From Eledone cirrhosa (lineage: Eukaryota): a stretch of 64,000 nucleotides of DNA. The notes under the pieces were generated by a model, which searched no databases, was not told where the DNA came from, and saw only the letters and a list, made by a program, of their open reading frames with translations. The stretch covers positions 252,340,001 to 252,404,000 of the forward strand of contig OZ024741.1 in NCBI GenBank assembly GCA_964016885.1, read 5' to 3'. Positions 29,682 to 61,581 of the stretch are shown piece by piece; the stretch's first letter is position 1; each line of letters begins with the position of its first letter. The translations under genes and the position numbers were made by a program.

Positions 29682-32114
29682 CAATATTGTATTTGGAGGA
29701 CTCTTCTCCAAGGTACCTGTGTCTATCCATTCACTCTGGGATTCATACTGGGGGTAGAAATCTCCCTTACATTCTATATACTGAATGTTTCTATTATTCA
29801 AATCTGTAGAATACCTCACTGGGGTACCAGGAACACTGCTGTTGCTGCTCTGACATGGTAAAGGTTGATCAATTCTGTTACATATAGCTGACCGATCAAC
29901 ACCTCTCCTAGTGGCCTTTGTAGATTGAGACTGACCACTGCTACATTTCAAAATACACAGTGTGATGGACACTACAATGACCACAGCCACTATTACAGCT
30001 GCTACTATAATTATAATTAATATTGGTATATCAAATATTTTCTTCTTCTCTAACTGGACAGTGGTCATCTGTGGTGCTGTTGTCTTGTTGGTGACCTTTA
30101 ATGATAAAGACACAGTAGTTGTGGCTGACATCACTGGGGTACCAGAATCCTTGACCACAAGTACCAGTTGATATGAGCCAGCTTCATTGAGATGAGGTGG
30201 ACGTGAGAAAGACATTTGACCAGTAAAAGAGTTCAGTGTAAACAACTGTTTATTATTACCATCATGTATTCCATATTTGAGGAAGGCATTTAAATGACTG
30301 TCTCTATCAGTGGCTTTAATCACAGTGATGGCATTGGTACTTTGTGGATGGTAGTGGACATTGATATGGAATGGGTCAGTTGTAGGGTAGATAAAATATG
30401 GACTATTGTCATTTCTGTCTAAAACCTCAATAACAACATTGGCTGTATTATTCAATGATGGTTGACCATTGTCTTTGACAAATACCTCAAATTTATACAT
30501 GTCTTCTTCTTCTCTATCTAATGGTATGTTACTGGTAATAAAACCATAGCCACTCACCTTAAAAGGTATATTATTTCTGTCTTTACTTAATATTGAGTAA
30601 GTCAGTTGACCAGCACTTCCTAGGTCTGGGTCAGTGGCATTAATAAAACCTATAGGAAAGTTAGCTTTACCATTCTCATAAGTAAGGAAGTGGAATTTAT
30701 CTTTGGTAAATTGTGGTTTCATGTCATTTACATCTATTATTTCAATAGAAATCTTTCTCTCTGTCTTTAAAGGAGGACTTCCATTGTCTTCACATATAAT
30801 TTTTATATTAAAATGGTCCAATGTTTCTCTGTCTAGTGATTTCTTCAAAGTAATTTTATATTCCTTTGATTCTAAATGTGAGAGGACAACTTTATCATGT
30901 TTTAAATTACAAGTCACCTCTCCATTATCCCCTACATCATTGTCCACTACATTGACATAAGCTATATAACTGCCCACTTCAGTTCCTTCATAAATTGCTG
31001 CTGTGTCCTTCTTTAGTTCAGACACAAAATTTATTCCAATTTTAGGAGCATGGTTCTCTTCATTAATGATATTAACTCTTACTATTGCAAAGGAATTTAG
31101 TGGGGGATTTCCACCATCTTTGGCCTCTACATATAACTTGAGAATATTCTTCTTTTGGGATTTAAAATGTTTTCTCACAAATAATTCTCCTGTTTGATGG
31201 TTTATGTTAAAATAGCTTCTTGTGCGTCCTGGAGTTTTTGAACTGATATAGTAAGTAACTTGACCATTCTGTCCAGAATCTGGGTCTTTCGCTGACAATG
31301 TCACAATAGGAATATCATTAGCATGTATATTTTTGATGGAAATATTGTAGATATGTTTTGAAAAAACTGGTGAGTTATCATTAACATCAATTATTGTTAT
31401 ATGAACATGTAAAATTCCTTGTTTTGGAGGTTGTCCTCCATCTTTAGCTATCACTTCTAGATTGTAACTATCTTTTAGTTCCCTGTCTAGTTTGTCTCCC
31501 AGAACAATTCCTATTTTAGATCCACCTGTGATAGTTTTCCTAACAGATAATATAAATGGTTCATTGAATTTTTTCTTTAATTTATAAGTAATTTCAGAGT
31601 TCTCCATTCCGATATCTTTATCAAATGCATCTGGTATTAATCTTTCTGCTCCCTCACCATCATCCTCATCAAATGTTAATTTCATATTTTCTTGTGGAAA
31701 TTCAGGTCCGTGATCATTGATGTCTTGTATAATGACTTTAACTTTTATAACTTTCAAAAATGTCTTCCTTTTGTGTACAGCAACTTTGATGTATCTAAAA
31801 CAATCTGATTCATACGTACACAGTTCCTCAGCATCAAGTGTTTGTGTAGTGTACAGTTTACCATCTTTTGTGACATTAAACAAGTGCGACTCTTCTGTCC
31901 ATTGCTGTTGCATTTGGTTATATGTGATGAAGTTATTTTCTATAAGCGAGGCACTATTCTCCATCTGTGTGTCAGCAGCAATATCCCCAACAAATGTAAA
32001 GGGAATACTTTCTTCTTCTACATGGTAGCTCAGATCAACACAGACACAACTGTGTAGTAATAGACTCAGGACATTGGCAAGTAAGTATGTATTCCACACA
32101 CAGTCTACTTCCAT
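29682..32114 (-). CDS. PCDH: Protocadherin large exon P2 (6 EC + TM + partial cytoplasmic domain)
   Basis: ORF 29649..32114; same domain motifs as P1; acceptor TAATTTCAG| 33 nt before the ATG (exon starts 32147); phase-0 donor TTG|GTAAGT after 29682; 811 codons. Confidence 0.95.
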
Positions 32115-59154: not shown

Positions 59155-61581
59155 CAATACTGTATTTTGAGGACTTTTCTCCAGGGTACCTGTGTCTATC
59201 CATTCACTCTGAGATTCATACTGGGGGTAGAAATCTCCCTTACATTCTATATACTGGATGTTTCTATAATTCAAATCTGTAGAATACCTCACTGGGGTAC
59301 CAGGAACACTGCTGTTGCTGCTCTGACATGGTAAAGGTTGATCAATTCTGTTACATATAGCTGACCGATCAACACCTCTCCTAGTGGCCTTTGTAGATTG
59401 AGACTGACCACTGCTACATTTCAAAATACACAGTGTGATAGACACTACAATGACCACAGCCACTATTACAGCTGCTACTATAATTATAATTAATATTGGT
59501 ATATCAAATATTTTCTTCTTCTCTAACTGGACAGTGGTCATCTGTGGTGCTGTTGTCTTATTGGTGACCTTTAATGATAAAGACACAGTAGTTGTGGCTG
59601 ACATCACTGGGGTACCAGAATCCTTGACCACAAGTACCAGTTGATATGAGCCAGCTTCATTAAGATGAGGTGGACGTGAGAAAGACATTTGACCAGTAAA
59701 AGAGTTCAGTGTAAACAACTGTTTATTATTACCATCAAGTATTCCATATTTGAGGAAGGCATTTAAATGACTGTCTCTATCAGTGGCTTTAATCACAGTG
59801 ATGGCATTGGTACTTTGTGGATGGTAGTGGACATTGATATGGAATGGGTCAGTTGTAGGGTAGATAAAATATGGACTATTGTCATTTCTGTCTAAAACCT
59901 CAATAACAACATTGGCTGTATTATTCAATGATGGTTGACCATTGTCTTTGACAAATACTTCAAATTTATACATGTCTTCTTCTTCTCTATCTAATGGTAT
60001 GTTGCTGGTAATAAAACCATAGTCACTCACCTTAAATGGTATATTATTTCTGTCTTTACTTAATATTGAGTAAGTTAGTTGACCAGCCCTTCCTAGGTCT
60101 AGGTCAGTGGCATTAATAAAACCTATAGGAAAGTTAGCTTTACCATTCTCATAAGTAAGGAAGTGGAATTTATCTTTGGTAAATTGTGGTTTCACATCAT
60201 TCACATCCATTACTTCAATAGAAATCTTTCTCTCTGCCTTTAAAGGAGGACTTCCATTGTCTTCACATACAAGTTTTATGCTAAAATGGTCCGATGTTTC
60301 TCTGTCTAATGATTTTTTCAAAGTAATTTTATATTCCTTAGATTCTAAATGTGAGAGGACAACTTTATCATGTTTTAAATTACAAGTCACCTCTCCATTC
60401 TCTCCTACATCATTGTCCACGACATTGACATAAGCTATATAACTGCCCACTTTAGTTCCTTCATAAATTGCTGCTGTATCCTTCTTTAGTTCAGACACAA
60501 AATTCATATCAATTTCTGGGGCATGGTTCTTTTCATTAAGAACATTCACCCGAACAATGGCTAAGGAATTTAGTGGAGGAGTCCCACCATCTTTGGCCTC
60601 TACATATAACTTTAGAATTTTCTTTTTTTGTGATGTAAAATGTTTTTTTACAAACAGTTCCCCATTTTGATGGTTTATTTTAAAGTAGCCTCTTGTGCGC
60701 CCTGGAGTTTTTGAACTGATATAGTAAGTAACTTGACCATTCTGTCCAGAATCTGGGTCTTTGGCTGACAATGTTACAATAGGAATATCATTAGCATGTG
60801 TATTTTTGATGGAAATATTGTAGATATGTTTTGAAAAAACTGGCGAGTTATCATTAACATCAATTATTGTTATATGAACATGTAAAATTCCTTGTTTTGG
60901 AGGTTGTCCTCCATCTTTAGCTATCACTTCTAGATTATAACTATCTTTTAGTTCCCTGTCTAGTTTGTCTCCAAGAATTATTCCTATTTTAGCTCCACCT
61001 GTGATAGTTTTCCTAACAGACAATATAAATGGTTCATTGAATTTTTTCTTCAATTTGTATGTAATTTCTGAGTTCTCCATTCCAATATCTTTATCAAAGG
61101 CATCTGGTATTAACTCTTCAGCACCTTCACCATCTCGCTCATCAAATGTGAATTCTACCTTTTTCTGTGGAAACTTAGGGCTATGATCATTGATGTCTTG
61201 TATAATGACTTTAACTTTTATGATTTTCAAAAATGTCTTCCTTTTATGTACAGCAACTTTGATGTATCTAAAACAATCTGATTCATATGTACAGAGTTCC
61301 TCAGCATCAAGTGTTTTTGTAGTGTACAGTTTACCATCTTTTGTGACATTAAACAAAGAATCTGTTCTTTGTCGCTGTATTTGGTTATATGTGATGAAGT
61401 TATTTTCTACAAGTGAGGCACTATTCTCCATCTGTGTGTCAGCAGCAATATCCCCAACAAATGTAAAGGGACTACTTTCTTCTTCTACATGGTAGCTCAG
61501 ATCAACACAGACACAACTGTGTAGTAATAGACTGAGGACATTAGCAAGTAAGTATGTATTCCACACACAGTCTACTTCCAT
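59155..61581 (-). CDS. PCDH: Protocadherin large exon P5
   Basis: ORF 59125..61584 (ATG at 61581); acceptor at 61614; phase-0 donor after 59155; 809 codons (2-aa deletion in EC1, QIQRQRTDSLF). Confidence 0.95.

What the first reader, a model, noticed from the sequence alone, without database searches (positions are those of the whole stretch)
29682..61581. Combinatorial patchwork of variable EC2-EC4 segments among paralogs (gene-conversion shuffling)
Seen: sharing patterns are incompatible with a single tree. P3+P5 share QKKVEFTFDERDGEGAEE and KLVCED..KAER; P2+P5 share DAF..SEITY and VTYYISSKTPGRTR; P1+P3+P4 share VSYYFSSETPE; P1+P5 share VLNEKNHAPEIDM vs IINEENHAPKIGI in P2-P4; P4+P5 share DLDLGRA. 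Variation concentrates at the start of EC2, mid EC3 and the EC3/EC4 boundary. Known: vertebrate clustered Pcdh specificity maps to EC1-EC4 (notably EC2/EC3), and gene conversion homogenises other domains. Inference: recognition codes are generated by recombining short cassettes.
Basis: partly seen in the sequence, partly recalled or inferred. Interest (0 to 1): 0.7.

Follow-up and report, generated by a model that had tools for sequence, protein, structure and literature searches.

The report
Patchwork octopus protocadherin gene array
Five neighbouring octopus-type nerve-cell adhesion genes have swapped DNA so that their back halves are nearly identical while their likely recognition surfaces are mosaics of old variants, as in vertebrates but evolved separately, which gives natural chimeras for testing how these proteins tell each other apart.

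Summary
The window holds five head-to-tail octopod protocadherin genes (minus strand), each with its own terminal exon. Gene conversion is well supported. P1 differs from the others at dS 1.05 in EC1 but 0.04 in EC5-cytoplasm, and the terminal exons and most flanks stay diverged. Argonauta paralogs show the same domain profile. Only three named patches are real tracts; three rest on 1-2 bases, and one split was counted twice. Synonymous-only mosaic signal is weak (PHI p=0.07-0.32; homoplasy p=0.02), and dN/dS is about 0.2 per domain. 'Free cassette shuffling' is not supported. Residues on surfaces that face each other in vertebrate dimers stay matched while synonymous sites between them are scrambled. 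Across 116 octopod proteins, charge anticorrelation falls on the vertebrate antiparallel faces (post hoc test, p about 0.002 after tree correction). Best reading: conversion homogenises EC4-cytoplasm and reassorts old EC1-EC4 variants, with selection keeping interface pairs together. Binding specificity is inferred, not shown.

The parts
8700..11132 (-). P1 large coding exon (putative ATG to splice donor): signal peptide, EC1-EC6, TM, cytoplasmic part. Divergent EC1 and mid-EC3, homogenised 3' half
   Evidence: ORF; Pfam Cadherin x5 plus Cadherin_2; donor GTAAG (printed positions are one base low, checked)
29682..32114 (-). P2 large coding exon
38855..41287 (-). P3 large coding exon
49189..51621 (-). 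P4 large coding exon; probable unequal-crossover hybrid (5' side P3-like, 3' side P5-like)
59155..61581 (-). P5 large coding exon
5129..5152 (-). P1 private terminal coding exon (7 residues + stop) after an AG acceptor
   Evidence: third positions differ from P2-P5 at 6 of 7 codons
25764..25787 (-). P2 private terminal coding exon
37430..37453 (-). P3 private terminal coding exon
47845..47868 (-). P4 private terminal coding exon (identical to P5's, as are the next 100 nt)
57787..57810 (-). P5 private terminal coding exon
40799..40876 (-). EC2 A-AB-B tract shared by P3 and P5 (P5: 61099-61176)
   Evidence: 6/78 nt differences against 16-23 for the other 9 pairs; strands from model
50734..50808 (-). 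EC3 B-C tract identical between P4 and P1 (P1: 10242-10316); P3 differs by 2 nt; P2 and P5 carry the other type
   Evidence: 0/75 nt; GENECONV-type global p=0.003
60505..60561 (-). EC3 G strand / linker / EC4 A-start tract of P1 type in P5 (P1: 10047-10103)
   Evidence: 11 of 11 informative sites in columns 346-375; 5 synonymous differences to P1, so the donor was older or another paralog
60994..60996 (-). EC2 D-E loop residue (Gly in P2/P5; Arg in P1/P3/P4) that co-varies with EC3 C-D loop column 303 (Lys/Glu; P5 60709-60711)
61357..61380 (-). P5 EC1 C-D loop, altered (basic, 2-residue deletion); goes with the acidic EC4 A-start
41300..49158 (.). Spacer P3-P4, duplicate of spacer P4-P5 (51634-59124)
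   Evidence: 446 differences in 6163 clean sites, 7.2%
22970..23169 (.). 200-N scaffold gap between P1 and P2; their adjacency is not proven

Best explanation
This is a tandem array of whole-gene duplicates of an octopod protocadherin subfamily that exchanges DNA by ectopic gene conversion, largely confined to the large exon, with at least one probable unequal crossover (P4). SHOWN: EC4-EC6, TM and cytoplasmic coding sequence is homogenised within the species, while EC1-EC3 and the start of EC4 keep old variants that occur in different combinations through tracts of roughly 50-80 nt. INFERRED: the proteins form the antiparallel EC1-EC4 dimer known from vertebrates (EC1 C-F-G on EC4 A-B-E-D; EC2 A-B-E-D on EC3 C-F-G). 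Conversions that erase an isoform's interface or break a matched pair are removed by selection, so amino-acid sets survive while synonymous sites around them are scrambled. Two such sets are visible: EC2 B/D-E with EC3 C/C-D (Arg208+Glu303 or Gly208+Lys303), and EC1 C-D with EC4 A-start (acidic+KIG or neutral/basic+EID). All four combinations occur among the five genes, and the EC2 A-B hairpin varies on top of them. The likely output is a set of isoforms with a shared cis and signalling end and different trans specificities.
For: dS of P1 vs the rest: EC1 1.05, EC2 0.35, EC3 0.46, EC4 0.11, EC5-cytoplasm 0.04-0.05. Synonymous heterogeneity in 10 of 10 pairs. Similarity of P1, and of P2, to the other genes ends within about 100 nt or less of the exon limits, and P1's terminal exon differs at 6 of 7 third positions. 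The EC4-cytoplasm tree groups by species (100/99 and 100/100), whereas the mid-EC3 tree joins P1 with Argonauta P0003 (94/93, below the star mark). Argonauta groups of 20 and 9 paralogs have EC4 97-98% but EC2/EC3 62-69% identity, protein PHI on EC2-3 p=0.0005 and p=0.002-0.04, and in both groups the EC2 A-B window is the most decoupled apart from the EC3 F-G end and Arg9's invariant EC1 start (rho 0.34 and 0.22). In EC2 of P2-P5, 17 of 48 A-B-D-E positions vary against 1 of 21 in the interleaved B-C/C/C-D stretch (p=0.007), although the latter is rich in synonymous change (pS 0.39). Amino-acid sets are matched while synonymous sites are flat. Net-charge anticorrelation: 8 of the top 10 of 791 element pairs are canonical interface pairs (0.63 expected; label permutation p=0.0006; 51 representatives); after independent contrasts 4 of 10 and 8 of 20, p=0.002. 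Faces and analogous salt-bridge swaps are from PMC7082078. Mouse beta6/beta8 at 92% EC1-4 identity do not cross-bind (PMC8901172); P2-P5 are 89-95% identical there.
Against: Synonymous-only PHI is not significant in 4 of 4 data sets, and only 2 pairs (P2-P3, P2-P4) reach global p<0.05 in synonymous GENECONV-type tests, each in only one data set. No domain has dN/dS above 0.40; only EC2 strand A (0.68; 1.16 for P1 vs the rest) and a 6-codon stretch (1.1-1.4) approach or pass 1. EC3 variation is not face-specific (14/51 vs 11/57, p=0.37). Single-column mutual information showed no EC2:EC3 face enrichment (2 of the top 25 against 21% background) and no signal for columns 174/208/303 (z -0.3 to -0.5; effective n 61). 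The charge test was devised after seeing and run on the same data; the strongest pairs reflect two classes that may stem from few events. EC2 A-B, the best cassette, has no covarying partner (2A-3G rho 0.01). The EC1 C-D / EC4 A-start charge match is weak family-wide for the 4-residue segment (rho -0.24, p=0.09). The matched sets rest on about two historical switches in five genes. The EC3-EC4 calcium motifs are absent in 116 of 116 proteins, so the dimer geometry may differ from vertebrates.
Confidence: 0.6

Rival explanations
1. Neutral concerted evolution: conversion runs where sequences are still similar and stalls where they have diverged. The patches are leftovers in tolerant loops (for example the EC3 E-F loop freed from calcium binding), with no recognition role.
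For: dN/dS about 0.2 per domain; pS is high wherever pN is high; EC3 variation is not face-specific; EC3 DRE and DxNDN motifs are lost; single-column covariation is uninformative.
Against: EC2 replacements are face-specific where synonymous change is not; amino-acid sets persist across scrambled synonymous sites; the same EC2/EC3 sparing recurs in Argonauta groups and in vertebrates (PMC4978886); charge anticorrelation falls on interface faces.
Confidence: 0.22
2. One reading: short cassettes recombine freely and each new combination is a new recognition code.
For: Three clean tracts; the EC2 A-B segment is decoupled in the window and in two Argonauta groups; in the Argonauta group of 20, EC2 A-B types and D-E types occur in all four combinations.
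Against: EC2 B/D-E and EC3 C variants stay together in 10 of 10 subfamily sequences, which are related and not independent; three named patches rest on 1-2 nt; self-comparison of the window showed no orphan donor cassettes (hits of 100 nt or more).
Confidence: 0.1
3. Recurrent or convergent substitution at a few fast sites on a star-like duplication tree, without small-tract exchange.
For: Weak synonymous-only incompatibility; the 1-2 nt patches could be parallel changes.
Against: An 11-of-11 run with 3 synonymous sites; 75 identical nt next to 48% divergence; simulations rejected.
Confidence: 0.05
4. Assembly or polishing artefact: collapsed or chimeric paralogs or haplotypes.
For: Repeat-rich region with a scaffold gap; P4 and P5 share an identical terminal exon and 3' 100 nt; no reads were available.
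Against: All five frames are intact; pairs differ at 91-263 nt with longest identical runs of 143-389 nt; the P5 tract has 5 synonymous differences from P1; each gene has its own combination of flanks; a separately assembled Argonauta genome shows the same profile.
Confidence: 0.03

Closest known systems
Coleoid cephalopod protocadherin arrays (Albertin et al. 2022, PMC9068888; Styfhals et al. 2019, PMC6339937; passages read)
   Same: Head-to-tail, multi-exonic whole-gene duplicates; gene conversion is suggested in both papers. Best hits are O. vulgaris (82%) and Argonauta hians (81%) proteins.
   Different: The passages read give no domain-level or tract-level analysis and no interface inference. 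This subfamily has five copies in the window, and no database representative is closer than 82% to P3.
Vertebrate clustered protocadherins with regional gene conversion (fugu PMC1852091; Xenopus/mouse PMC4978886; passages read; Noonan 2004 seen only as cited)
   Same: 3' ectodomains homogenised and EC2/EC3 most divergent (mouse alpha EC1-EC6: 96/69/59/85/98/84%); same fold (best Foldseek and sequence hits are vertebrate Pcdh EC1-4).
   Different: Independent expansion; no shared constant exon; EC2/EC3 here do take part in short-tract exchange, whereas those papers treat them as spared; the EC3-EC4 calcium linker is degenerate.
delta-protocadherin antiparallel dimers (Harrison et al. 2020, PMC7082078; passages and section 11 read)
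   Same: Subtype-specific contacts at the EC2 D-E and EC3 C-D loops, and Glu/Lys swaps between EC1 and EC4, match where octopod charges anticorrelate.
   Different: Those are single, non-converting genes. Their EC2 D-E arginine is paired with Glu294/Glu292 of EC3, numbered well beyond the C-D loop, so the 208:303 pairing here is inferred from covariation only.
MHC-type patchwork polymorphism by micro-conversion (recalled, no call)
   Same: Old variable segments reassorted among related genes by short tracts.
   Different: Paralogs rather than alleles; no dN/dS above 1 at domain level.

Membership tests
Protocadherin (six-repeat type) | Six cadherin repeats with Cadherin_2-type EC1, one TM helix, ectodomain in one large exon | tested here: met
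   (P1, P2, P5 scanned)
Coleoid protocadherin expansion | Nearest relatives are octopod protocadherins; head-to-tail whole-gene duplicates | tested here: met
   116 of the 120 listed hits carry Octopus or Argonauta names, 4 are unnamed; own terminal exon in 5 of 5 genes
Vertebrate clustered protocadherins | Variable exons spliced to shared constant exons | tested here: not met
   private terminal exon with stop in 5 of 5 genes
Vertebrate clustered protocadherins | Canonical calcium motifs at every EC1-EC5 junction | tested here: not met
   EC3-EC4: 0 of 116 with DxND[NH], 0 of 116 with EC3 D[RY]E; the EC1-2, EC2-3 and EC4-5 linker motifs are nearly invariant
Vertebrate clustered protocadherins | Antiparallel EC1-EC4 trans dimer | tested here: inconclusive
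   charge anticorrelation is enriched on the canonical faces (post hoc); single-column covariation is not enriched for EC2:EC3
Vertebrate clustered protocadherins | Strict homophilic binding and stochastic single-neuron expression | not testable with these tools
   needs binding assays and single-cell data
Ectopic gene conversion / concerted evolution | Regional homogenisation of synonymous sites | tested here: met
Ectopic gene conversion / concerted evolution | Paralogs group by species in converted regions and by gene elsewhere | tested here: met
   (mid-EC3 support 94/93; in EC1 P2-P5 group with the O. vulgaris and Argonauta proteins, 95/96, apart from P1)
Ectopic gene conversion / concerted evolution | Flanks and other exons more diverged than converted tracts | tested here: met
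   (the P3-P4 and P4-P5 spacers are an exception, 7% apart)
Ectopic gene conversion / concerted evolution | Raised GC3 in converted regions | tested here: inconclusive
   EC6-cytoplasm 0.34-0.37 vs EC2 0.14-0.21, but EC4/EC5 0.24-0.29 and EC1 0.28-0.35
Programmed cassette diversifiers (silent donors; features recalled) | Silent donor cassettes or pseudogenes | tested here: not met
   five intact frames, no orphan pieces of 100 nt or more in the window; sequence outside the window not seen
Programmed cassette diversifiers (silent donors; features recalled) | Fixed, reused tract boundaries | tested here: inconclusive
   EC2 A-B is decoupled in three subfamilies, but no DNA was available for the other species
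MHC-type patchwork under diversifying selection (features recalled) | dN/dS above 1 in the variable segments | tested here: not met
   0.17-0.27 per ectodomain; 0.68 in EC2 strand A among P2-P5; no codon site model was run
MHC-type patchwork under diversifying selection (features recalled) | Segment variants older than species splits | tested here: met
   both EC3 C types and both EC4 A-start types occur in Argonauta or O. vulgaris proteins

The most novel reading that the evidence does not exclude
Octopods generate new neuronal identity tags in the germ line by reassorting self-complementary interface modules (EC2:EC3 pair, EC1:EC4 pair, EC2 A-B hairpin) among whole-gene duplicates through micro-conversion. 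That would be a combinatorial code built by recombination, where vertebrates use promoter choice and flies use splicing. It would act on an antiparallel dimer with a calcium-poor EC3-EC4 hinge.
Probability: 0.27. Interest if true: 0.82.

Novelty: new variant of a known kind. Interest (0 to 1): 0.58.

Why it matters
Octopus protocadherin expansion is a standard example of convergence with vertebrate brains. I found no solved cephalopod structure among the 53 PDB matches listed and no cephalopod binding or structure study in the search made. The data here indicate that the convergence extends to the pattern of gene conversion (EC2/EC3 spared, EC4-EC6 homogenised) and probably to the antiparallel interface. 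They also name specific residue pairs and five natural chimeras, so specificity can be tested with a handful of constructs. If the pairs are modular, recombination itself would be a source of neuronal identity tags.

Tried and rejected
Homodimer prediction of P1 EC1-EC4: no verdict (score 0.00, alignment not used); it is used neither for nor against. AlphaFold2 with a 10-row alignment failed (pLDDT 30); the 116-row model (pLDDT 87) was used only for strand limits. Single-column mutual information was underpowered and dominated by gappy or variable columns; it did place EC1 K99/K85 with EC4 E393 near the top. A single long P1-type tract as the cause of the 174/208/303 match: not supported, because P1 is no closer to P3/P4 than to P2/P5 at synonymous sites (19 and 17 vs 20 and 16). 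A vertebrate-like shared constant exon: rejected. Positive selection at domain level: not found. P4 as a clean hybrid: only partly borne out. P3=P4 sites outnumber P4=P5 sites 16:3 in columns 9-147 and 20:0 in 346-430, but columns 431-822 give only 9:12, and columns 148-170 favour P3=P5. The cluster-member look-up could not be made, so close orthologs (over 90% identity) of the O. vulgaris and Argonauta proteins were not seen, and no DNA from other species was examined. The Argonauta groups were chosen on EC5-6 identity of at least 92% and from 90%-cluster representatives, which inflates the contrast; EC4 was not selected on. Six groups held 38 of 57 proteins; the lowest domain was EC2 or EC3 in 3 groups and EC1 in the 3 pairs. 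Left out of the 116-row alignment: P0015 (partial coverage) and four unnamed hits. ARAGORN found no tRNA. Literature: 10 searches listed no domain-level study of cephalopod protocadherin conversion (one search listed 30 of 71 papers). Albertin 2015, Wang and Ragsdale 2017 and Noonan 2004 were not read (one look-up failed) and no supplements were opened; these may already describe part of this.
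Full report
WHAT IS THERE. Five long minus-strand ORFs encode six-repeat protocadherins (Pfam, three of five scanned). The nearest database proteins to P3 are from Octopus vulgaris (82%) and Argonauta hians (81%, 75%); 116 of the 120 listed hits carry octopod names. The window is therefore from an octopod; I did not try to name the species. Each large exon ends at a GTAAG donor. Each gene has its own 24-nt terminal coding exon 1.3-3.9 kb downstream, matching the C-terminus of the O. 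vulgaris protein. These are whole-gene duplicates, as stated for coleoids in PMC9068888 (passages), not vertebrate-style variable exons. A 200-N gap lies between P1 and P2. 'Columns' are columns of alignment A1.

THE OBSERVATION. The exons do not fit one tree: PHI p=5e-5 on 92 informative sites, and 64 extra steps on the best of 15 trees against at most 37 in 300 single-tree simulations. Under a harder null with branch lengths free in each of five blocks, p=0.01 for homoplasy and p=0.005 for the longest run. Three tracts carry most of the signal. In EC2 strand A, P3 and P5 differ at 3 of 51 nt, the other pairs at 11-17. In EC3 B-C, P1 and P4 are identical over 75 nt directly beside 45 differences in 93 nt. 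At EC3 G/EC4 A, 11 of 11 informative sites join P1 with P5. The other named patches rest on one or two bases with conflicting synonymous sites between them, and one split was listed twice. With synonymous sites alone PHI is not significant in any of four data sets (p=0.07-0.32), excess homoplasy is marginal (p=0.02) and the longest run is not significant (p=0.72).

GENE CONVERSION IS WELL SUPPORTED. P1 differs from P2-P5 at dS 1.05 in EC1, 0.35-0.46 in EC2-EC3, 0.11 in EC4 and 0.04-0.05 beyond. Synonymous difference is heterogeneous across domains in 10 of 10 pairs. Similarity of P1 and of P2 to the other genes stops close to the exon limits, and P1's terminal exon differs at 6 of 7 third positions. 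In trees of ten proteins, EC4-cytoplasm groups by species, while mid-EC3 joins P1 to Argonauta P0003 (94/93) and EC1 joins P2-P5 to the other species' proteins. Argonauta groups of 20 and 9 paralogs have EC4 97-98% against EC2/EC3 62-69% identity (the groups were selected on EC5-6, see Tried and rejected). They have significant protein-level PHI in EC2-3 (p=0.0005; p=0.002-0.04), though not in EC2 or EC3 alone for the group of 9 and not in EC1 for either. This profile matches mouse alpha-protocadherins and fugu (PMC4978886 and PMC1852091, passages). The spacers P3-P4 and P4-P5 are duplicates 7.2% apart. P4 has a P3-like upstream side and a P5-like downstream side, which suggests unequal crossover inside the exon; the 3' half of the exon supports this only weakly. 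Misassembly is unlikely: frames are intact, identical runs are at most 389 nt, the P5 tract carries 5 synonymous differences from P1, and a separate genome shows the same design. Reads were not available.

ARE THE PATCHES A CODE? Against simple generation of novelty: dN/dS is 0.17-0.27 per ectodomain among P2-P5, synonymous divergence peaks in the same patches, and both variants of the EC3 C and EC4 A patches exist in other octopods. They are old segments that survived and were moved. For a recognition role: with strand limits from a confident model (pLDDT 87) and faces from PMC7082078 (passages), EC2 replacements among P2-P5 fall on the A-B-D-E face (17 of 48 positions) and avoid the interleaved B-C/C/C-D stretch (1 of 21; p=0.007), where synonymous change is high. 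EC3 shows no such face bias (p=0.37). Part of its variation may be relaxed constraint, since 0 of 116 proteins keep the EC3 DRE or the EC3-EC4 DxNDN motif while the other linkers are canonical.

SHUFFLING IS CONSTRAINED. Over columns 169-306, P2/P5 and P3/P4 each differ at 3 residues but at 11-13 across the groups, while synonymous differences are 12-20 in all ten pairs. The matched set includes Gly208 with Lys303 versus Arg208 with Glu303, in the EC2 D-E and EC3 C-D loops that hold subtype-specific contacts in vertebrate dimers (PMC7082078 section 11). A second match links an acidic EC1 C-D loop with KIG and a neutral or basic loop with EID at the EC4 start; it holds in 9 of 10 subfamily sequences, P0004 being the exception. 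All four combinations of the two sets occur among P1-P5. These rest on few events. A family-wide check gave mixed results. Single-column mutual information was uninformative for EC2:EC3. Net charge per element was anticorrelated mainly on the canonical faces: 8 of the top 10 of 791 pairs in 51 representatives (0.63 expected; p=0.0006), 7 of 10 in 29 representatives, and 4 of 10 after independent contrasts (p=0.002); swapped faces show nothing. The top pairs are EC1 F/G with EC4 B/E, a Lys:Glu versus Glu:Lys swap like the one described for delta-1 protocadherins, and EC2 D-E with EC3 C-D (rho -0.56; -0.24 after contrasts, rank 14). This test was noticed and formalised on the same data, and its tree ignores recombination, so it is a strong lead and not proof.

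MECHANISM. Shown: tandem duplication, homogenisation of the 3' part of the large exon, and short-tract mosaics of old variants. Inferred: an antiparallel dimer, selection against conversions that erase or mismatch interface residues, and distinct specificities. The last is plausible because mouse isoforms at 92% EC1-4 identity do not cross-bind (PMC8901172, passages) and P2-P5 are at 89-95%. My confidence is about 0.95 for conversion and about 0.6 for the whole mechanism.

NOVELTY. Conversion in protocadherin clusters is known in vertebrates and has been suggested for cephalopods (PMC9068888; PMC6339937, passages). Ten searches listed no domain-level analysis for cephalopods, no report of the degenerate EC3-EC4 linker and no cephalopod structure. 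Albertin 2015, Wang and Ragsdale 2017, Noonan 2004 and all supplements were not seen. PMC5106212 (passages) was used for vertebrate specificity positions, and bioRxiv 10.1101/2025.05.16.652989 (passages) only for the existence of a separate Argonauta hians assembly. The comparisons with MHC patchwork and programmed cassette systems are recalled. Verdict: a real feature, a new variant of a known kind, interest 0.58.

Noticed in passing
window 40217-40237 (P3 EC3-EC4 linker) and equivalents; alignment A3: The EC3-EC4 junction lacks the DxNDN motif and EC3 lacks DRE in 116 of 116 octopod protocadherins, while other linkers are canonical: a probable calcium-poor hinge. One search found no paper on it.
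   Followed up: partly
alignment A3, EC1 strands F/G and EC4 strands B/E: Two charge classes of octopod protocadherins (basic EC1 with acidic EC4, or the reverse), a likely subfamily-level specificity switch.
   Followed up: partly
window 15036-18407: 310-bp satellite, about 11 copies at 99-100% identity, with an inversion at about 16162 that forms a long near-palindrome.
   Followed up: no
window 13505-14233 (-): 242-codon open frame that looks like the C-terminal part of a non-LTR retrotransposon protein (label recalled; no Pfam hit at E<0.001); related pieces near 27150-27970, 35139-35255 and 55391-55505.
   Followed up: no
window 42589-42737; also 25123-25231, 26143-26335, 26641-26827, 29437-29627: A 150-190 nt dispersed repeat (SINE-like, inferred). 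The copy upstream of P3 has a direct repeat of about 25 nt on both sides and is absent from the matching P4 site, so it inserted after that duplication.
   Followed up: partly
window 5326-8058: Degenerate minisatellite (offsets suggest a unit of about 19 bp) fills most of P1's last intron.
   Followed up: no
window 47300-48300 vs 57250-58240: P4 and P5 terminal exon region is 98-99.5% identical, more than the rest of the duplicated spacer: recent conversion or constraint on the 3' UTR.
   Followed up: no
Argonauta P0005 vs P0002/P0003, EC6: EC6 of a more distant Argonauta paralog is 88-89% identical to P0002/P0003 against 80-81% for its O. vulgaris counterpart P0004, suggesting conversion across subfamilies.
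   Followed up: no
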